DNA of 47,126 bases. Origin: an uncultured Muribaculaceae bacterium. Its GTDB lineage: Bacteria; Bacillota_I; Bacilli_A; RF39; UBA660. Positions 3-47,126 of the stretch are shown here, piece by piece (positions within the stretch are counted from its first letter, which is position 1; each line of letters starts with the position of its first letter). The stretch spans positions 1 through 47,126 of the forward strand of contig CAYJEL010000001.1 in assembly GCA_964369245.1 (NCBI GenBank), given 5' to 3'. The notes beneath the pieces were generated by a model. It did not search any database and had not been told where the DNA came from. It saw nothing but the letters and a program-made list of their open reading frames with translations. The position numbers and the translations under genes were made by a program.

Positions 3-419
3 ATGATGTCTAGATTAATAAATAGATCATTTCCAGATGTTACAAAATTAATTCCAGATAATTTTAAAATCAAAGTTACTATACCAACTCAAGAATTTTA
101 TAGTTTACTTGATAGAGTATCTTTATTTTCATCTGAAGAGGAAAATAATAATATAAAATTAGAATGTATTGATGATACTTTAGTTGTAAAATCTAATATT
201 CCAGAAATTGGTAATGTTGAAGAAAAGTTAAGTATTAAAAAATCTGTTAATGAAAATTTCAGAATTGCTTTTAGTTCAAAATATATGATGGAAGCTATAA
301 AATCATTTAATAGTGATGAAATTGAATTTTCATTTAATGAGGAAATTAAACCTATTATATTAAAAAGTTGTGGTGATGATTCGTTATTACAACTAATTGT
401 TCCAATGAAAACTTACTAA
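3..419 (+). CDS. dnaN: DNA polymerase III beta sliding clamp, C-terminal part (5' end outside window)
   Basis: The ORF runs from the window edge. Its C-terminal sequence (…FRIAFSSKYMMEAIK…PIILKS…LQLIVPMKTY) is typical of DnaN domain III. It lies upstream of recF-gyrB-gyrA. Confidence 0.9.
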   Translation: MMSRLINRSFPDVTKLIPDNFKIKVTIPTQEFYSLLDRVSLFSSEEENNNIKLECIDDTLVVKSNIPEIGNVEEKLSIKKSVNENFRIAFSSKYMMEAIKSFNSDEIEFSFNEEIKPIILKSCGDDSLLQLIVPMKTY

Positions 420-430
420 TTGTAAGTTTT

Positions 431-460
431 TTTGTCGAATTTTGTCGAATTTTGTCGAAC
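431..460 (+). promoter_or_regulatory. Three tandem 10-bp repeats TTTGTCGAA(T/C), each with a perfect Spo0A 0A box TGTCGAA
   Basis: tttgtcgaat tttgtcgaat tttgtcgaac read directly. The 0A cores are at 433-439, 443-449 and 453-459, spaced at exactly one helical turn. Confidence 0.6.
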
Positions 461-487
461 GGAAAATGTTTCATTTAAAAAATTGTG

Positions 488-496
488 TGTTATTAT
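488..496 (+). promoter_or_regulatory. Extended -10 element (TGTTATTAT) upstream of the ComK-like gene
   Basis: TGnTATTAT match about 45 nt upstream of the ATG at 542, just downstream of the 0A-box triplet. Confidence 0.35.
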
Positions 497-541
497 ATAA
501 ACCACTTAGCGCAAATACTAAGTTAGTAAGGGGGTGTGTAT

Positions 542-988
542 ATGACTGAATATTATATTAATAAAGAAACATCTTTAATTATTCCTATTGATGAAAATCA
601 TACTAAAGTTATTGAAAATAATACTGAATATATAATCGATAGTAATTGTATGGATGTTGTAAATGAAAGTTGTATGTATTATGGAAGTAATTATCAGGGA
701 AGATATATGGGTAGTAAAAAGATTTTAAATATGAATTATAAGTTACCTATTGTATTGGATGAATATAATGAAATTATTATTTTTCCAACTTCTTCACCTC
801 GATTAAAAGGTTGTACTTGGTTAGTATTACAAAATATAGAAAACTATAGTAAATTTGAAGAAAAAACTTTAGTCACTTTAAAAAATGGAGTATCATTTAA
901 AGTAGAAATTTCTTATGGTTCTTTTGAATCTCAAATTTTTAGAGCTTCTATGTTGTTAATGCTTTTAAAAAAGAGAAAAAAGGTATAA
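542..988 (+). CDS. comK: ComK-family competence transcription factor-like protein
   Basis: Core …ESCMYYGSNYQGRYMGS…YKLPIVLDEYNEIIIFPTSSPRLKGCTWLVLQNI…ISYGSFESQIFRA resembles B. subtilis ComK (…SCRFFGSSYAGRKAGT…PPIMVD…IFLFPT…C.WI…ISYNSFENQVYR). The ATG at 542 lies 6 nt after AAGGGGG. The GTG at 536 in the ORF track overlaps that SD. Confidence 0.7.
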   Translation: MTEYYINKETSLIIPIDENHTKVIENNTEYIIDSNCMDVVNESCMYYGSNYQGRYMGSKKILNMNYKLPIVLDEYNEIIIFPTSSPRLKGCTWLVLQNIENYSKFEEKTLVTLKNGVSFKVEISYGSFESQIFRASMLLMLLKKRKKV

Positions 989-1013
989 AAAAATAGTATA
1001 TACTATTTTTTTT
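987..1013. terminator. AT-rich perfect palindrome A7-TAGTATATACTA-T8, possible weak bidirectional terminator
   Basis: Overlaps the comK-like stop codon by two bases and runs downstream. Only one G:C pair, so the hairpin is weak. Confidence 0.3.
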
Positions 1014-1118
1014 ATTGTTTTAAAGGCTATTTTTTGATATAATGTAAGAGTGTATATATCCCTATTTGAATTATATTTTATTAAAAAAAGTGATATAAAA
1101 TAAGCTGAGGTGATTTTT

Positions 1119-2234
1119 TTGATCATAGATAAACTAAAATTAGTTAATTATAGGAATTATGAATCATTAGATTTAAAGTTTAATTCTAATATTAACATAT
1201 TTTATGGCAATAATGCTCAAGGAAAAACTAATATCTTAGAGAGTATATACTTAATATCCACAGCAAATTCACATAGATTAAGTGAAAATTCACAAATTAT
1301 AAAAAATGATTGCAGCAAATCTAAAGTAACAGCTTTTATTAAGTCAAGTAATTTTAAAAATAGATTTGAAATTATTTTATCAGCTAATGAAAAAATATTG
1401 AAAAATAATGGAAATGATATAAAAAAAATAAGTGAATATTTATATTCATCTATTGATGTTATTATTTTTACTCCAGATGATTTAGATTTAATTAAAGGTT
1501 CTCCTAGTGGAAGGAGGAATTTTATTAATAATGAGTTGTGTAAATTATCAGAAAATTATACAAAAATATTAAATGACTATAATAAGATACTTAAAATTAG
1601 AAATGATTATTTGAAAAAATTGGCTAATAATATTAATATAGATGAAAGTTATTTTAACATTATTTCAAATTATCTGGTTGATAAAGGTATTTTGATTTAT
1701 AGGATGAGGAAGAAATTTTTTGAAAAAATTAATGATAATGCTAATGATATATTTATTAAAATATTTGGAATGGAAAATTTTAAAGTTAAATATATTTGTA
1801 ATTTTTTTGATAATGAGGATGAAATGAAAAGATGTTTTCAAGAAAAGCTAGAAGTTAACAAAAAAAAGGAAATTCAAAATGGAATGACTTTATTTGGACC
1901 ACATAGGGATGATTTAGAGTTTTATTTAAACGATAAAAACTTAAAGGATTATGGTTCACAAGGTCAGCAACGAGCTTCAGTACTTTGTTTAAAACTATCG
2001 GAAATAGATATTTATAAAAATACTAAGTTTAGAAACCCTGTTGTATTACTAGATGATATTTTTAGTGAATTAGATGATATTAAAAAAAATAATATTTTAA
2101 AATTATTAAGTGATGATATACAAGTTTTCATAACTACAACTGATTTAAAAAATGTTAATAAGAGAAAATTGAATAAAGCTAATTACTATAAAATTAAAGA
2201 TGGTAAAATTATAAAGATAGAAGAGGAAAATTAA
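1119..2234 (+). CDS. recF: DNA replication and repair protein RecF
   Basis: N-terminal [12 protein letters not shown]…[14 protein letters not shown] (Walker A), GSQGQQR signature and [10 protein letters not shown] Walker B. The TTG at 1119 lies 5 nt after GAGGTGA. The track start at 1110 (GTG) sits inside that SD. Confidence 0.9.
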
Positions 2235-6670: not shown

Positions 6671-6697
6671 ATGTTTCACGTGAAACATTGTGGATAA
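6671..6697. promoter_or_regulatory. Composite site 1: parS palindrome 6671-6688 abutting a perfect DnaA box TGTGGATAA 6689-6697
   Basis: Direct read. The inner 16 bp TGTTTCACGTGAAACA is the parS consensus. The box reads TTATCCACA on the minus strand. Confidence 0.8.
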
Positions 6698-6800
6698 AAA
6701 ATATAATTATAGTTATTTTAATACTATTTAACTTCCTTTTATATAGAATAGCACTATTTATAATTTTTTTACATTTCCCAACTTTAAATTAATATAAACT

Positions 6801-6827
6801 ATGTTTCACGTGAAACATAGTGGAAAA
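6801..6827. promoter_or_regulatory. Composite site 2: parS palindrome 6801-6818 abutting the degenerate box AGTGGAAAA 6819-6827
   Basis: Direct read. The box is TTTTCCACT on the minus strand, with the last base off consensus. Confidence 0.7.
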
Positions 6828-7009
6828 CTTTTATTTATTTTATATTGCAAATATTGGTAAAAAACATGTTGATAAATATAAATAGTATAGCACTATAGTT
6901 AATCTATTACTCAGATCACATTTATATTAAGATTAGTTTGATATTTTAACTATTTACTATTTTAAATATTGTACGTTTGTAATCAGTATATTCGTATCAT
7001 TTAAATTTC

Positions 7010-7036
7010 ATGTTTCACGTGAAACATTGTGGATAA
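7010..7036. promoter_or_regulatory. Composite site 3: parS palindrome 7010-7027 abutting TGTGGATAA 7028-7036
   Basis: Direct read. Confidence 0.8.
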
Positions 7037-7140
7037 AAAAATAATTATAGTTATTTTCATACTATTTAATATTCTTTTATATAGAATGCTACTATTTATA
7101 AACTTTTTTTAAATTTTCTAATTTTTAATTAATATAAACT

Positions 7141-7167
7141 ATGTTTCACGTGAAACATAGTGGAAAA
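7141..7167. promoter_or_regulatory. Composite site 4: parS palindrome 7141-7158 abutting AGTGGAAAA 7159-7167
   Basis: Direct read. Confidence 0.7.
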
Positions 7168-7313
7168 CTTATATATATAATATTAAAATAATAAAAAAAC
7201 TCATTTGTAATGATAAACATTAGCCTATATTATAAATAAATTAATTATATACAGCCATTTTAACTATATATATATAAATTTTAATAGTAATATGAATTTA
7301 TTATGTAATATCA

Positions 7314-7345
7314 ATGTTTCACGTGAAACATAAAATTGTGGATAA
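7314..7345. promoter_or_regulatory. Composite site 5: parS palindrome 7314-7331, AAAAT spacer, TGTGGATAA 7337-7345
   Basis: Direct read. Confidence 0.8.
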
Positions 7346-7519
7346 ACTTTAATTAAGCCATTATGAATATGTTTTACAAATATAATATATTGGATTTATT
7401 TTTATAGTTATTTATTAATAAATCAATATAATACGATTTCAATGACATATGTGTTAATTATTTACTTTTTTTTAAATAGTTTATACTTATAAATAATATA
7501 TTTGTATTATTTATATAAT

Positions 7520-7546
7520 ATGTTTCACGTGAAACATAGTGGAAAA
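7520..7546. promoter_or_regulatory. Composite site 6: parS palindrome 7520-7537 abutting AGTGGAAAA 7538-7546
   Basis: Direct read. Confidence 0.7.
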
Positions 7547-7660
7547 CTTATTTATAATGATAAATAATAGCTTATTTTATAAATAAGTTGTTTATATATA
7601 GTCATTTTAGACTATTTATATGGTTTTTTAGTAATAAAATAGATGTATTACGTAATATCA

Positions 7661-7686
7661 ATGTTTCACGTGAAACATGTGGATAA
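7661..7686. promoter_or_regulatory. Composite site 7: parS palindrome 7661-7678 overlapping TGTGGATAA 7678-7686 by 1 nt
   Basis: Direct read. Confidence 0.8.
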
Positions 7687-7852
7687 TTAAATAAAATTAC
7701 AATAATCTCTTTTCATTTAATTATTGTTAAATTTTTTATTAAATATAAAGAAATAAGTATAGAAATTAGAAATATTTTATAAAATAATACTCATTAGTAA
7801 TTGTTTTATTAAGTTATTAATATACTTAATATGTAATATTCAATTTAATTCA

Positions 7853-7879
7853 ATGTTTCACGTGAAACATTGTGGATAA
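7853..7879. promoter_or_regulatory. Composite site 8: parS palindrome 7853-7870 abutting TGTGGATAA 7871-7879
   Basis: Direct read. Confidence 0.8.
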
Positions 7880-7955
7880 CTGTTAATAGTATAGATTAAT
7901 ATAATAGTTAAGTGGGGGATAATATATTTAATTGTAATTAATATAATAAAAATTC

Positions 7956-7981
7956 ATGTTTCACGTGAAACATGTGGATAA
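7956..7981. promoter_or_regulatory. Composite site 9: parS palindrome 7956-7973 overlapping TGTGGATAA 7973-7981 by 1 nt
   Basis: Direct read. Confidence 0.8.
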
Positions 7982-8050
7982 TAGGAATATCTGTTAAAAT
8001 AATCCTTATAATTTTAATAATTTATTTATTTTTAATAGAAATTATTTATA

Positions 8051-8082
8051 ATGTTTCACGTGAAACATAAAATTGTGGAAAA
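8051..8082. promoter_or_regulatory. Composite site 10: parS palindrome 8051-8068, AAAAT spacer, TGTGGAAAA 8074-8082
   Basis: Direct read. The box is TTTTCCACA on the minus strand, a common DnaA-box variant. Confidence 0.75.
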
Positions 8083-30409: not shown

Positions 30410-30838
30410 ATGAAAAGAGAATTTTGTGCCTCTGTATTTGTTGTAAATCCTGTGGATAAAAAAATATTATTATGTTTTCATAAGGATTTTCAAAAATGGG
30501 TTCAACCAGGTGGACATATCGATAAAGATGAATTACCAGAAGAAACTGCTATTAGAGAAGCTTATGAAGAAACTGGTATTAGAATTAAGTTAATTGGAGA
30601 AAGATTTCCTCGTGAGGATGATTTTTTAAGACCTTTAGCTATTCAAAAAAATAGAAGCAGTGAAGTTATTCATGTTGATATCACATATGTTGGTGTACCT
30701 TTGAATCAAGATGTTGTTAAAATTGATGATGAGATATTAAAATATAGATGGTTTACTCGTGAAGAGTTAGATGAATATGATGTATTTCAAGATATAAAAA
30801 TAAGTTATGATTATATTGTTAAAAATATAATTAAATAA
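30410..30838 (+). CDS. NUDIX hydrolase
   Basis: Nudix box GGHIDKDELPEETAIREAYEETGI. Confidence 0.85.
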   Translation: MKREFCASVFVVNPVDKKILLCFHKDFQKWVQPGGHIDKDELPEETAIREAYEETGIRIKLIGERFPREDDFLRPLAIQKNRSSEVIHVDITYVGVPLNQDVVKIDDEILKYRWFTREELDEYDVFQDIKISYDYIVKNIIK

Positions 30839-30851
30839 CTTTTTTTTATTT

Positions 30852-30883
30852 GTCATAATAAAGTCACTTTTAATTGTTATAAT
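30852..30883 (+). promoter_or_regulatory. Activator-type promoter of the ABC/FtsX operon: direct repeat GTCA-N7-GTCA replacing the -35, plus extended -10 TGTTATAAT
   Basis: GTCA at 30852 and 30863 (11-bp period). TGnTATAAT at 30875-30883. No recognisable -35 hexamer. Confidence 0.35.
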
Positions 30884-30902
30884 GTTAATGAGGAGAGATT
30901 TT

Positions 30903-31592
30903 ATGGAAATATTGAAAGTAAAAAATTTAGTTAAAACTTATGGTGAGGGAGATAATTGTGTTAGAGCAGTTGATGATATTTCTTTTACTGTGGATAAGGG
31001 TGAATTCGTAGCCATTGTAGGAGCTTCTGGGAGTGGTAAGTCAACTTTATTACATTTAATTGGTGGTGTGGATAAACCTACAGGTGGAAAAGTATTTATT
31101 GATGGAACTGATATTTATAATTTGAAGCAAGATAAATTAGCAATTTTTAGAAGAAGACAAGTTGGTTTGATTTATCAGTTTTATAATTTGATTCCTATAT
31201 TAACTGTTTTGGAAAATATAACTTTACCTGCGGATTTAGATGGAAAAGAAATGGATTTATCTAATCTATCTGAAATCTTAAAAACTTTGGATTTAGAAAA
31301 TAGAAAAAATCATTTACCTAATCAGTTATCTGGTGGACAACAACAAAGAGTTTCGATTGGTAGGGCTTTAATTAATAATCCGGCTATAGTTTTAGCTGAT
31401 GAGCCGACTGGTAATTTGGATAGTAAAAATTCAGAAGAAATTGTAACTTTACTAAAAATGTCTAATAAAAAGTATAAGCAAACAATAATTATGATAACTC
31501 ATGATATGGAAATAGCTTCAGTAGCTGATAGAATTATTACAATTGATGATGGTAAAATAGTTAAGGATAGTAAATATGAAGATATTAAGTAA
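30903..31592 (+). CDS. ABC transporter ATP-binding protein (MacB/BceA-type)
   Basis: GASGSGKSTL, LSGGQQQRV, LADEPTGNLD and ITHD. ATG 6 nt after GAGGAGAG. Confidence 0.92.
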   Translation: MEILKVKNLVKTYGEGDNCVRAVDDISFTVDKGEFVAIVGASGSGKSTLLHLIGGVDKPTGGKVFIDGTDIYNLKQDKLAIFRRRQVGLIYQFYNLIPILTVLENITLPADLDGKEMDLSNLSEILKTLDLENRKNHLPNQLSGGQQQRVSIGRALINNPAIVLADEPTGNLDSKNSEEIVTLLKMSNKKYKQTIIMITHDMEIASVADRIITIDDGKIVKDSKYEDIK

Positions 31593-45665: not shown

Positions 45666-47126
45666 TTACATTGTTAAAAACGCTTCAAAAATAGTTCCTT
45701 CTAAGTTAGTAATTATATTATTAATTATTGTATTTAGTTCTTCTTCTGTCAACGTGTTTACATCTTTAGCATTTGTTTTATCAAATGTTTCTATTGTTTC
45801 ATTAGTTGTAATTTTATTTTCTAAATTTACTTCTAAGTATATATCTTCGTTTGATGGATCTTCTATAGCTGCTTTAATAGATATATTAGTGTTTATTTCA
45901 TTTTCAGAAACTGTTTCATTTTTTAAATTTATTTCTAAAACAGCAGTTTGATTATTTTCAATAGTCGCTTCTAATCTGAAGTTGATATTTTCTTCTTCAA
46001 ATTTTATTACTATGTTACCATCATTGGTTTCAAATTTAATTTGATCTAAATCATAATAATAGCTTAATTCATAATCATCACCTGTTACTTGAATACCAAA
46101 TGGTGTAGATAATAAACCTTGTGTTAAAATATTAATTGAAAAAGTTTCTCCGTTAATATCTAAGTCACTTTTTGAATCTTCTAAGTTGTTAATTAGTTCA
46201 TCTTTGTCCATTTCAATGTATTTCGTTACTAAAATTAAAAATTCTTCATCATTTTTCATAGCATCAATAATAGACACTAACATTTTTTCTAATGTATCAG
46301 AGTCTACTTCATATTCATGTGAAGTAACTTTGTAATCTGTATCATCAATTGTAATTGTTTTATCTTCTTTAGTAAATTGTTCACTTATTAAAGAATTCGC
46401 TAGATAGCCACTTATTTTATTTAATAATAACTCTCTATCTTCTTTTGAAATAGTATTATTTTGGATATCTAAAGATTCCATATTTAAATCTAATTCATAA
46501 TCTAATTGGGCGAATAATTTTTCTGAGAAGACACCAGGTAAAGTAGCTACCACTTCATTATCTAATATATTAATCATTGCTCTTAATAAATCCTCATTAT
46601 TTTGAGTTAAGCCTAAATTAGTATATAGATTTGTATTTTTTGCATCTATTCCTATTTTATAATCGATTGCATATTCATTTATTTCTTCTAATCCTGGAAA
46701 GTTTGTATTTAAGCTTAATTTTCCATTTGAGAATAATGTATCTTCATCTACATTATAACTAAAAGTAAAGTTTTCTAAGTCGTCTAATGTATTATTAATA
46801 TTTTTGAATCCTTGTTCAATTGAAGATTTAAATATACTTTCTGATGACATAAATACTGTTTTAAAAATAAATATTCCACTAATTAAAAGCGCTATTGCTA
46901 TAACAACTATTACTATTAAAACCATGTTATTAGATTTTTTATTATTAGGTGTATTTGGATTAACTCCAGTATCATGTATTGTTGTTGTAGGTTGTACTAC
47001 TTCTGGATTAACTTGAGTTGTAGGTTGTACTACTTCTTGATTAACTTGAGTTGTAGGTTGTACTACTTCTTGATTAACTTGAGTTGTAGGTTGTACTACT
47101 TCTGGATTAACTTGAGTTGTAGGTTG
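45666..47126 (-). CDS. Hypothetical single-pass membrane protein with N-terminal 11-aa tandem repeats (5' end probably outside window)
   Basis: The track ORF starts at the ATG at 46925, but there is no SD upstream of it. The same frame stays open with no start or stop codon through 46926-47126. A TM helix (VLIVIVVIAIALLISGIFIF) follows KK, then about 395 aa of acidic Asn/Glu/Asp-rich domain with no recognisable family. Confidence 0.55.
   Translation of the reverse strand, partial: QPTTQVNPEVVQPTTQVNQEVVQPTTQVNQEVVQPTTQVNPEVVQPTTTIHDTGVNPNTPNNKKSNNMVLIVIVVIAIALLISGIFIFKTVFMSSESIFKSSIEQGFKNINNTLDDLENFTFSYNVDEDTLFSNGKLSLNTNFPGLEEINEYAIDYKIGIDAKNTNLYTNLGLTQNNEDLLRAMINILDNEVVATLPGVFSEKLFAQLDYELDLNMESLDIQNNTISKEDRELLLNKISGYLANSLISEQFTKEDKTITIDDTDYKVTSHEYEVDSDTLEKMLVSIIDAMKNDEEFLILVTKYIEMDKDELINNLEDSKSDLDINGETFSINILTQGLLSTPFGIQVTGDDYELSYYYDLDQIKFETNDGNIVIKFEEENINFRLEATIENNQTAVLEINLKNETVSENEINTNISIKAAIEDPSNEDIYLEVNLENKITTNETIETFDKTNAKDVNTLTEEELNTIINNIITNLEGTIFEAFLTM
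46984..47126 (-). repeat. 33-bp tandem repeat, about 4.3 copies, running off the window edge
   Basis: Units 46984-47016, 47017-47049, 47050-47082, 47083-47115, plus a partial unit. They differ only at one position (ctgg/cttg). On the minus strand they read in frame as QPTTQVN(P/Q)EVV. Confidence 0.9.

What the first reader, a model, noticed from the sequence alone, without database searches (positions are those of the whole stretch)
431..460. Three perfect, helically phased Spo0A boxes between dnaN and the ComK-like gene
tttgtcgaat/tttgtcgaat/tttgtcgaac is a 3 x 10-bp tandem repeat. Each unit carries the canonical 0A box TGTCGAA, with the extended TTTGTCGAA form. The triplet ends about 30 nt upstream of an extended -10 (TGTTATTAT, 488-496). 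This puts the boxes roughly from -70 to -45 relative to a likely start site, a position typical of Spo0A-activated promoters. The organism is clearly a spore former, since spoIID, spoIIID, bofA and a SpoIIQ-like gene are in this window. B. subtilis comK is itself gated by Spo0A boxes, and 0A boxes near oriC modulate replication. An array of three identical consensus boxes at exactly 10-bp phasing is cleaner than natural B. subtilis targets. It sits immediately next to the replication genes.
Basis: partly seen in the sequence, partly recalled or inferred. Interest (0 to 1): 0.6.

Follow-up and report, generated by a model that had tools for sequence, protein, structure and literature searches.

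The report
Spo0A-box array on comK-like promoter
Three perfect, evenly spaced binding sites for the sporulation master regulator Spo0A sit in front of a small competence-type (ComK) regulator gene in an uncultured small-genome gut bacterium; related species keep them, so they are very probably a real switch, of a kind already known from Bacillus subtilis.

Summary
Window 431-460 is a 3 x 10-bp tandem whose units each carry the Spo0A core TGTCGAA (433-439, 443-449, 453-459). It lies between the dnaN terminator and a promoter with an extended -10 (488-496) for a Pfam ComK-family gene (542-988). The genome encodes Spo0A with a recognition helix identical to the B. subtilis protein. The triplet recurs at this gene across the genus and in other genera of the family. 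Box cores are 92-94% identical between species, against 46-51% for adjoining DNA, and the distance to the -10 is fixed. Tandem boxes also mark spo0A itself (20 of 20 relatives examined), an orphan histidine kinase and a cold-shock gene. In a small sample they occur in genomes with Spo0A, with or without ComK.

New here: this genome and three relatives carry the array flipped and moved about two helical turns upstream (centres -47/-57/-67, against -28/-38/-48 elsewhere).

There is no sign of a replication role. Spo0A control of comK is known in B. subtilis, and this scan has already reported the same promoter in several related genomes. It is a new member of a known kind.

The parts
3..419 (+). 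3' part of dnaN (sliding clamp); the contig starts inside the gene
   Evidence: Pfam DNA_pol3_beta_3, E 2.5e-30
407..431 (+). Intrinsic terminator hairpin of dnaN (10-bp stem, 5-nt loop) running into a T-tract that merges with box 1
   Evidence: RNA fold -9.1 kcal/mol, z -4.6, 0 of 200 shuffles as good. An equivalent hairpin plus T-run is visible by eye in the relatives' upstream sequences but was not folded there.
433..439 (+). 0A box 1, TGTCGAA, centre about -67
443..449 (+). 0A box 2, TGTCGAA, centre about -57
453..459 (+). 0A box 3, TGTCGAA, centre about -47
460..487 (+). Spacer between the array and the -10 region. Its length is conserved (31-32 nt from box 3 to the hexamer) but its sequence is not (51% mean pairwise identity among the four forward-type species). 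No good -35 hexamer.
488..496 (+). Extended -10 element TGT-TATTAT (hexamer 491-496). The transcription start is inferred near 503.
   Evidence: Read from the sequence. TGn-TAT(C/T)AT is conserved in the three closest forward-type relatives. The simple sigma-70 scan did not list it because there is no -35.
530..534 (+). Shine-Dalgarno GGGGG, 7 nt before the ATG at 542
   Evidence: Sequence; a G-rich SD is conserved in relatives
542..988 (+). ComK-family gene (148 aa) in the dnaN-recF slot
   Evidence: Pfam ComK PF06338, E 9.3e-40, profile positions 2-151 of 152. Homologues in 27 of 29 genus genomes and 34 of 36 family genomes searched.
987..1012 (+). Terminator hairpin after the ComK-like gene, followed by a T-run
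   Evidence: RNA fold -6.8 kcal/mol, z -3.7
1110..2234 (+). recF, apparently with its own promoter (TGaTATAAT near 1034-1042, read by eye)
   Evidence: Pfam SMC_N / AAA_23; sequence

Best explanation
The three TGTCGAA repeats are a high-affinity binding array for phosphorylated Spo0A. They tie transcription of the monocistronic ComK-like gene to the Spo0A~P level.

Spo0A~P would bind head-to-tail on the 7+3-bp repeats, which is the spacing of footprinted Spo0A dimer sites. In this genome it would sit at about -44 to -73, just upstream of a promoter that has an extended -10 but no -35.

My preferred reading, at about 55-60%, is that it acts there as an upstream activator, as sites A1-A3 do at B. 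subtilis comK. The ComK-like regulator would then be switched on when the orphan kinase-Spo0A pathway fires.

Shown: the sequence, its conservation and fixed spacing, the presence of Spo0A with an unchanged recognition helix, and the same boxes at spo0A, at a kinase gene and at a SigF-type gene. Inferred: binding, the start site and the sign of regulation.
For: 1. Three exact matches to the Spo0A core, separated by 3 bp. PMC3485338 and PMC2731898 give TGTCGAA as the 0A box. PMC2731898 footprints Spo0A on two boxes separated by 3 bp.
2. spo0A is present. Its C-terminal domain aligns to B. subtilis Spo0A-DNA complex chain 1LQ1_A at E 6e-43, with the stretch SRVERAIRHAIEV identical.
3. Conservation. 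A triplet, or a degenerate triplet, lies between the dnaN terminator and the ComK-like gene in most genus genomes examined. It is also present in other genera of the family whose ComK proteins are only 33-45% identical.
4. Selection on the cores. Box cores are 92% (forward type) and 94% (reverse type) identical pairwise. Spacers are 66-75% identical and adjoining DNA 46-51%.
5. Fixed spacing to the -10: 31-32 nt in the four forward-type species, and 12 nt (19 genomes) or 11 nt (2 genomes) in 21 reverse-type genomes.
6. Genus-wide, the tandem pattern matches 60 times and the reversed control 0 times. The recurrent loci are the comK-like gene, an orphan membrane histidine kinase of about 384 aa, and a csp paralogue.
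7. A TTCGACA box followed by a second, weaker box lies at a fixed place upstream of spo0A in 20 of 20 relatives and in this genome. [quoted passage not shown]
8. A box lies upstream of a SigF-type sigma gene.
9. In five class-level relatives with Spo0A but no ComK hit below 1e-5 (four with none at all), the tandem pattern with up to 1 mismatch matches 14 times against 3 for the control. Two of the 14 lie just upstream of spo0A. In five relatives without Spo0A it matches once against 2 for the control.
10. Precedent: Spo0A~P acts directly at B. subtilis PcomK through five boxes (PMC3297582).
Against: - There is no binding or expression evidence.
- The sign of regulation is open. In most relatives the array is inverted and covers about -25 to -51 of an extended -10 promoter, a place where Spo0A could as well repress. 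The paired boxes at phage Nf/phi29 promoter A2c do repress (PMC2731898).
- An extended -10 promoter may not need an activator.
- Some classic Spo0A targets give no support here. No box with up to 1 mismatch lies upstream of spoIIGA. No SpoIIE or AbrB Pfam hit was found in this 90%-complete genome.
- The genome has about ten other response regulators, and some families of these also bind direct repeats.
- All 36 family genomes searched have Spo0A, so there is no clean presence/absence contrast within the family. The class-level contrast covers only ten related genomes.
Confidence: 0.75

Rival explanations
1. Spo0A~P does bind the array, but its main effect is repression or a shut-off gate on a constitutive extended -10 promoter. 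The ComK-like gene would then be turned off once cells commit to sporulation.
For: In 21 relatives the three boxes lie 11-12 nt upstream of the -10 hexamer, covering about -25 to -51. The orphan kinase promoter has the same layout, with the proximal box in the -35 position. Paired boxes overlapping a core promoter repress phage Nf/phi29 A2c (PMC2731898). Sites R1 and R2 repress B. subtilis comK (PMC3297582). The promoter has a TGn extended -10, which can work without a -35 (own knowledge).
Against: In this genome and three relatives the array lies wholly upstream of about -44, where it would not occlude RNA polymerase. Even so, the boxes and their 31-32 nt distance are maintained across species whose ComK proteins are only 54-77% identical. 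That is hard to explain by steric repression alone. No promoter in either layout has a -35 hexamer at 17 bp.
Confidence: 0.3
2. The repeats are bound by a different protein: the ComK-like protein itself (autoregulation), or another response regulator that recognises direct repeats. The match to the 0A box is coincidental.
For: The genome has about ten other receiver-domain proteins. OmpR/PhoB-type regulators bind direct repeats with a 10-11 bp period (own knowledge). One perfect box plus degenerate repeats lies upstream of a type IV pilin-like gene (C68), the sort of gene ComK controls in B. subtilis.
Against: The core is an exact 7 of 7 match to the 0A box, with the 3-bp spacer of footprinted Spo0A sites. 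The boxes are conserved upstream of spo0A itself in 20 of 20 relatives. Tandem boxes occur in Spo0A-positive genomes with no ComK-like hit, or only a very weak one, and are at background level in Spo0A-negative ones. The known ComK box, A4-N5-T4 (own knowledge), does not fit the repeat. The kinase that carries the same array is an orphan with no adjacent regulator gene.
Confidence: 0.1
3. The array serves chromosome replication or origin biology (Spo0A boxes near oriC that hold back initiation) rather than transcription of the neighbouring gene.
For: The array sits between dnaN and recF, and Spo0A boxes at origins can block replication (PMC2731898, introduction).
Against: No DnaA box with up to 1 mismatch lies within 1-1253. 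The array keeps a fixed distance to the -10 of the ComK-like gene in both layouts. In G036 the ComK-like gene does not follow dnaN and no consensus array is seen there, so no case exists of the array staying at dnaN-recF without the gene. The same arrays occur at kinase, csp and spo0A promoters far from this locus.
Confidence: 0.04
4. It is a chance or slippage-generated tandem repeat with no function, or part of an antisense promoter read on the minus strand (TCGACA, 18 nt, TACAAT at 448-419).
For: The three units are identical including their spacers, as expected after recent slippage. The promoter scan lists a 10-of-12 match on the minus strand.
Against: Relatives keep the cores while their spacers differ, so the array is old and the cores are under selection. 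The reversed control pattern gives 0 hits in 30 genomes. The minus-strand -10 is simply part of the dnaN terminator stem. Promoter-like hits in this region are not above shuffles (5 found against 6.7 expected).
Confidence: 0.02

Closest known systems
Direct Spo0A~P control of the Bacillus subtilis comK promoter ('temporal gate', Mirouze et al. 2012, PMC3297582)
   Same: A ComK-family regulator gene carries several Spo0A boxes in its promoter. Upstream boxes are proposed to activate, and boxes on the core promoter to repress. Both link competence-type regulation to the Spo0A~P level.
   Different: - B. subtilis has five imperfect boxes with 1-2 mismatches each, scattered among ComK and Rok sites. 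Here there are three perfect boxes in one strictly 10-bp phased block.
- Neither ComK boxes nor a Rok homologue were looked for here.
- The gene is short (148 aa) and sits between dnaN and recF.
- The function of this ComK-like protein is unknown.
Paired 0A boxes separated by 3 bp, footprinted by Spo0A (phage Nf/phi29 A2c site 0A-1, PMC2731898; abrB tandem boxes used for the Spo0A-DNA crystal structure 1LQ1, the latter from own knowledge)
   Same: The same 7-bp core and the same 3-bp spacer, which seats Spo0A protomers head-to-tail on one face of the helix.
   Different: Those sites have two boxes, often imperfect, and act as repressors. Here there are three perfect boxes, placed upstream of the core promoter in this genome.
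spoIIG-type Spo0A-activated sigma-A promoters of B. subtilis (own knowledge: 0A boxes around -40 and -50, and a -35-like element about 22 bp from the -10; Satola et al. 1992, cited in PMC2731898 but not held in the library)
   Same: In the reverse-type relatives the middle box, TTCGACA, lies 22 nt upstream of the -10 hexamer, and boxes are centred near -38 and -48.
   Different: This genome has the flipped layout, shifted upstream. The relatives have a third box at about -28. None of this is tested experimentally.
The same promoter in related uncultured Bacilli, reported earlier by this scan (e1-740515, e1-1262231, e1-1493822, e1-1179421, e1-1355865, e1-2844153)
   Same: A ComK-like gene between dnaN and recF behind three phased Spo0A boxes. 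The orphan kinase has the same promoter design.
   Different: Judging from their short summaries, those notes do not mention the inverted, upstream-shifted version. It is found here in G000, G019, G009 and G005.

Membership tests
Spo0A binding site (0A box array) | 7-bp core TGTCGAA | tested here: met
   Three exact cores at 433-439, 443-449 and 453-459. The consensus is as given in PMC3485338 and PMC2731898.
Spo0A binding site (0A box array) | Tandem boxes in the same orientation, 3 bp apart (10-bp period), as in footprinted Spo0A dimer sites | tested here: met
   TRF period 10, 100%. [quoted passage not shown]
Spo0A binding site (0A box array) | The genome encodes Spo0A with conserved DNA-contacting residues | tested here: met
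   PF08769 hit of 137.5 bits at C2:26946-27257. The alignment to 1LQ1_A has SRVERAIRHAIEV identical. Individual contact residues were not enumerated.
Spo0A binding site (0A box array) | Placed in a promoter at a fixed distance from core elements | tested here: met
   31-32 nt to the -10 in 4 forward-type species; 12 or 11 nt in 21 reverse-type genomes.
Spo0A binding site (0A box array) | Conserved in relatives with selection on the core bases | tested here: met
   Cores 92-94% identical against flanks 46-51%. Present across the genus and in other genera of the family.
Spo0A binding site (0A box array) | The same motif at hallmark Spo0A targets (spo0A itself, early sporulation genes) | tested here: inconclusive
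   Met for spo0A (20 of 20 relatives plus own genome) and for a SigF-type gene. Not met for spoIIGA. spoIIE and abrB were not found in the genome.
Spo0A binding site (0A box array) | The motif occurs in genomes that have spo0A and not in those that lack it | tested here: inconclusive
   14 against 3 control hits in five Spo0A-positive genomes; 1 against 2 in five Spo0A-negative genomes. The sample is small and the genomes are related. All family members have Spo0A.
Spo0A binding site (0A box array) | Physical binding by Spo0A~P and Spo0A-dependent transcription | not testable with these tools
ComK family transcription factor | Full-length match to the ComK domain | tested here: met
   PF06338, E 9.3e-40, residues 2-146 on profile positions 2-151 of 152. 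No NCBIfam model matched.
ComK family transcription factor | Acts as a competence master regulator (binds K-boxes, activates DNA-uptake genes, autoregulates) | not tested
   The only related evidence is that ComEC and a ComGA-type ATPase are encoded in the genome.
Origin-associated 0A boxes (replication control) | Boxes lie within a DnaA-box cluster or oriC | tested here: not met
   No DnaA box with up to 1 mismatch lies within 1-1253. The site lies between two terminators in a promoter.

The most novel reading that the evidence does not exclude
In these reduced-genome, uncultured Bacilli the consensus tandem arrays define a very small direct Spo0A regulon: spo0A, one orphan kinase, a csp paralogue and the ComK-like gene. 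The origin-side ComK-like regulator would be a principal developmental output of Spo0A. The flipped array, shifted by two helical turns in this genome's subclade, would be a natural experiment showing that Spo0A can drive the same promoter from either orientation and from either side of the -35 position. That would mean the promoter architecture was rewired without loss of control.
Probability: 0.2. Interest if true: 0.55.

Novelty: new member of a known kind. Interest (0 to 1): 0.33.

Why it matters
If the prediction holds, sporulation-type signalling (orphan kinase to Spo0A) in a widespread, uncultured, genome-reduced gut lineage feeds directly into a ComK-type regulator. That gives a simple, testable wiring diagram for organisms that cannot yet be grown.

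The unusually clean arrays (perfect cores, fixed phasing, two alternative layouts for the same gene) would also make convenient natural substrates for a specific question: how do box orientation and distance decide whether Spo0A activates or represses?

It does not reveal a new mechanism. Spo0A control of comK is established in B. subtilis, and this scan has already met the same promoter in related genomes.

Tried and rejected
- **5' UTR hairpin.** A short stem just before the ribosome-binding site seems to covary between species by eye. RNAalifold on a MAFFT alignment found no consensus pairs because the alignment was out of register. The G000 UTR folds no better than shuffles (z +1.0). I left it as an unconfirmed side note.
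- **Classic Spo0A targets.** spoIIGA has no box with up to 1 mismatch upstream. SpoIIE and AbrB gave no Pfam hits.
- **Organism name.** The genome-contig scan returned only one related locus, titled 'uncultured Bacillales bacterium', so the lineage name remains unknown to me.
- **spoIIG architecture.** Satola et al. 1992 (PMC206539) is not held, and a search for 'spoIIG' with '22 bp' found no paper containing the phrase '22 bp'. The spoIIG comparison therefore rests on my own knowledge.
- **Sigma-H promoter.** I looked by eye for one in the 460-490 gap. AGGA-like words occur in two relatives but there is no matching -10, so I rejected it.
- **ComK A4-N5-T4 boxes.** The repeat does not fit this pattern. 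I did not pursue it genome-wide because such words are common in 25% GC DNA.
- **Minus-strand promoter-like hit.** Rejected, because it coincides with the dnaN terminator stem.

Full report
**Observation**

Window 431-460 reads tttgtcgaat tttgtcgaat tttgtcgaac. Tandem Repeats Finder reports a 10-bp unit, 3.0 copies, 100% matches at 430-459. Each unit holds the 7-bp Spo0A core TGTCGAA, at 433-439, 443-449 and 453-459.

The core occurs 5 times in the window against 1.64 expected, and 49 times on both strands of the 1.12-Mb, 25.4% GC genome. Runs of boxes (up to 1 mismatch) at 9-11-bp steps occur at only two places in the genome: here, and at C58:4561-4577.

Across 30 genomes of the genus the pattern TGTCGAA-N3-TGTCGAA matches 60 times in 25 genomes. 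The same pattern read backwards matches nowhere.

**Anatomy of the locus**

- The contig begins inside dnaN (3-419; Pfam DNA_pol3_beta_3).
- dnaN ends in a good AT-rich terminator hairpin (407-431, -9.1 kcal/mol, z -4.6). Its T-tract runs straight into box 1, so the 'extended' TTT of box 1 doubles as terminator tail.
- After box 3 comes a 31-nt gap with no -35 hexamer. Then comes an extended -10, TGT-TATTAT (488-496), a G-rich ribosome-binding site (530-534), and an ATG at 542.
- The ORF 542-988 is a full-length ComK-family protein (PF06338, E 9.3e-40).
- It is followed by its own terminator (987-1012, -6.8 kcal/mol).
- recF (1110-2234) follows, behind what looks by eye like a separate promoter.

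The ComK-like gene is thus a monocistronic unit insulated on both sides, and the array belongs to its promoter. With the start inferred near 503, the box centres are at about -67, -57 and -47.

**Is Spo0A there, and would it read this sequence?**

The genome has one spo0A (C2:26526-27287; PF08769, 137.5 bits). Its C-terminal domain aligns with the B. subtilis Spo0A chain of the protein-DNA complex 1LQ1 at E 6e-43, and the stretch SRVERAIRHAIEV is identical.

PMC3485338 shows that even C. difficile Spo0A, with conserved contact residues, recognises the same TGTCGAA core, and that G2, C4 and G5 are the bases that matter. PMC2731898 footprints Spo0A on two boxes separated by 3 bp. The 7+3-bp repeat seen here is therefore the natural seat of head-to-tail Spo0A protomers.

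**Conservation**

ComK-like homologues were found in 27 of 29 other genus genomes and 34 of 36 family genomes searched. In all but a few loci examined (G036, G042 and G033 differ) the gene follows dnaN.

In most genus genomes the intergenic region carries three boxes 10 bp apart, in the opposite orientation (TTCGACA x3). Other genera of the family keep them as well:

- G032, whose ComK is 33% identical, has three perfect boxes.
- G030, G033, G035, G031 and the named MAG CAMVNW01 have two or three boxes, partly degenerate.

Among 19 reverse-type genus genomes the 21 core positions are 94% identical pairwise. The 3-bp spacers are 66% identical, and the 9 nt next to the array 46%. Core positions 4-7 (GACA) are almost invariant: two exceptions among 228 cells. 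That is a classic footprint of selection on the cores.

The last box ends 12 nt (19 genomes) or 11 nt (2 genomes) before a conserved TGn-TATAAG -10. This puts the box centres near -28, -38 and -48.

**What is particular to this window**

G000 and three relatives (G019, G009, G005) have the array in the forward orientation, with a 31-32-nt gap to a TGn-TAT(C/T)AT -10. Their ComK proteins are 77%, 54% and 54% identical to this one.

The gap sequences are only 51% identical, yet the gap length is constant and the cores are 92% identical. The array has therefore been flipped and displaced by 19-20 bp, about two helical turns.

On a ComK tree these four species form two pairs inside the genus, in an unresolved three-way split with the large reverse-type clade. 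The earliest genus branch and all other genera are reverse-type. Forward is therefore the derived state, arising once or twice.

In the same genome the orphan kinase promoter still has the ancestral layout: TATGACA-aaa-TTCGACA-aaa-TTCGACA, then 12 nt, then TATAAT.

**Other loci with the motif**

Three other kinds of locus recur.

- **Orphan kinase.** Across the genus, tandem boxes lie upstream of an orphan membrane histidine kinase of about 384 aa. In G000 this is C58:3376-4527, with no adjacent regulator gene. It matches generic histidine-kinase models only.
- **Cold-shock paralogue.** Tandem boxes also lie upstream of a cold-shock-protein paralogue in several genus genomes.
- **spo0A itself.** A TTCGACA box with a weaker second box 10 bp on sits at a fixed place upstream of spo0A in all 20 relatives examined and in G000. 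[quoted passage not shown]

In G000 one perfect box and one box with a single mismatch precede a SigF-type sigma gene, which is followed by ORFs that look like spoVA genes.

Class-level relatives give a small presence/absence contrast. In five genomes with Spo0A but no ComK hit below 1e-5 (four with none at all), the tandem pattern with up to 1 mismatch matches 14 times against 3 for the control. Two of the matches lie just upstream of spo0A (G045, G050). In five relatives without Spo0A it matches once against 2 for the control. The sample is small and the genomes are related, but the motif goes with Spo0A, not with ComK.

**Weak points**

- No box precedes spoIIGA.
- No SpoIIE or AbrB was found in this 90%-complete genome.
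- All family genomes have Spo0A, so there is no within-family contrast.
- About ten other response regulators are encoded.

**Mechanism**

Most likely (about 0.75), Spo0A~P binds the array cooperatively and sets the activity of the ComK-like promoter. The sign is inferred, not shown.

For this genome I lean to activation (55-60%), for three reasons:

- The array lies entirely upstream of about -44.
- There is no -35 hexamer.
- The boxes and their helical phase are maintained at this non-occluding position.

In B. subtilis the upstream sites A1-A3 are read as activation sites, and R1 (overlapping the -35) and R2 as repression sites that close the window (PMC3297582).

The reverse layout of the relatives, at -25 to -51, admits two readings. 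It could be a spoIIG-like activator arrangement: the middle box is a -35-like TTCGACA 22 nt from the -10, which matches the spoIIG architecture as I recall it (own knowledge; the source paper was not available). It could equally be a repressor arrangement, as at phage Nf/phi29 A2c (PMC2731898).

ComEC and a ComGA-type ATPase are encoded, as are many prepilin-type proteins. A DNA-uptake or pilus output for the ComK-like protein is therefore possible, but untested.

**Replication link**

No DnaA box with up to 1 mismatch lies within 1-1253. The array tracks the promoter of the gene, not the origin.

**Comparison and novelty**

The closest known system is direct Spo0A~P control of B. subtilis comK (PMC3297582). 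The present case differs in architecture: one block of three perfect, phased boxes; a short ComK; the dnaN-recF slot; two alternative layouts.

No held paper contains all four terms ComK, dnaN, recF and Spo0A. The paper on sporulation loss in RF39, RFN20 and ML615J-28 does not mention ComK or competence.

This scan has already reported the same promoter in several related genomes (e1-740515, e1-1262231, e1-1493822, e1-1179421, e1-1355865, e1-2844153). One of those notes also records the kinase promoter. My analysis reached the same reading independently before I consulted them. It adds three things: the flipped, upstream-shifted variant; the spo0A-upstream conservation; and the csp locus.

**Verdict**

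The feature is a new member of a known kind and of moderate-to-low interest.

Noticed in passing
window 497-541 and the equivalent 5' UTRs in L003-L027: Just before the ribosome-binding site most species have a short hairpin whose stem sequence changes between species while pairing seems kept by eye (CTTAG/CTAAG, ACCAA/TTGGT, GCCAA/TTGGC, AACTT/AAGTT). RNAalifold on a MAFFT alignment found nothing, and the G000 UTR folds no better than shuffles.
   Followed up: partly
G000 contig C58:3376-4527 (minus strand), boxes at C58:4561-4577: An orphan membrane histidine kinase (383 aa) has two perfect and one degenerate 0A box, then 12 nt, then TATAAT. The same arrangement recurs in many genus genomes. 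It is a candidate Spo0A kinase under Spo0A feedback.
   Followed up: partly
L034, L037, L039, L046, L047, L052, L057, L060 (relatives): Two forward-oriented 0A boxes recur between two cold-shock-protein (CspA-type) genes, upstream of the second one. No such pair was seen in G000.
   Followed up: no
G000 whole genome: No Pfam SpoIIE or AbrB/MazE-type hit was found. The SigF-type gene at C57:4276-4929 has no spoIIAA/spoIIAB-like ORFs directly upstream. This suggests a trimmed sporulation-initiation module, although the genome is only about 90% complete.
   Followed up: no
window 30451-31075: Three perfect DnaA boxes (TTATCCACA) lie on the minus strand within 625 bp, apart from the DnaA/parS array at 6689-8082.
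   Followed up: no
window 46984-47126: A 33-bp tandem repeat, 4.3 copies at 98% identity, runs off the end of the window and contig. It may be a repeat-containing coding region that broke the assembly.
   Followed up: no
G000 contigs C2, C24, C68, C79: There are many genes with prepilin-type N-termini (FTLIELLAV...), some very large. One perfect 0A box plus 10-bp-phased TTTGT repeats lies upstream of the 165-aa pilin gene at C68:3234-3731.
   Followed up: no
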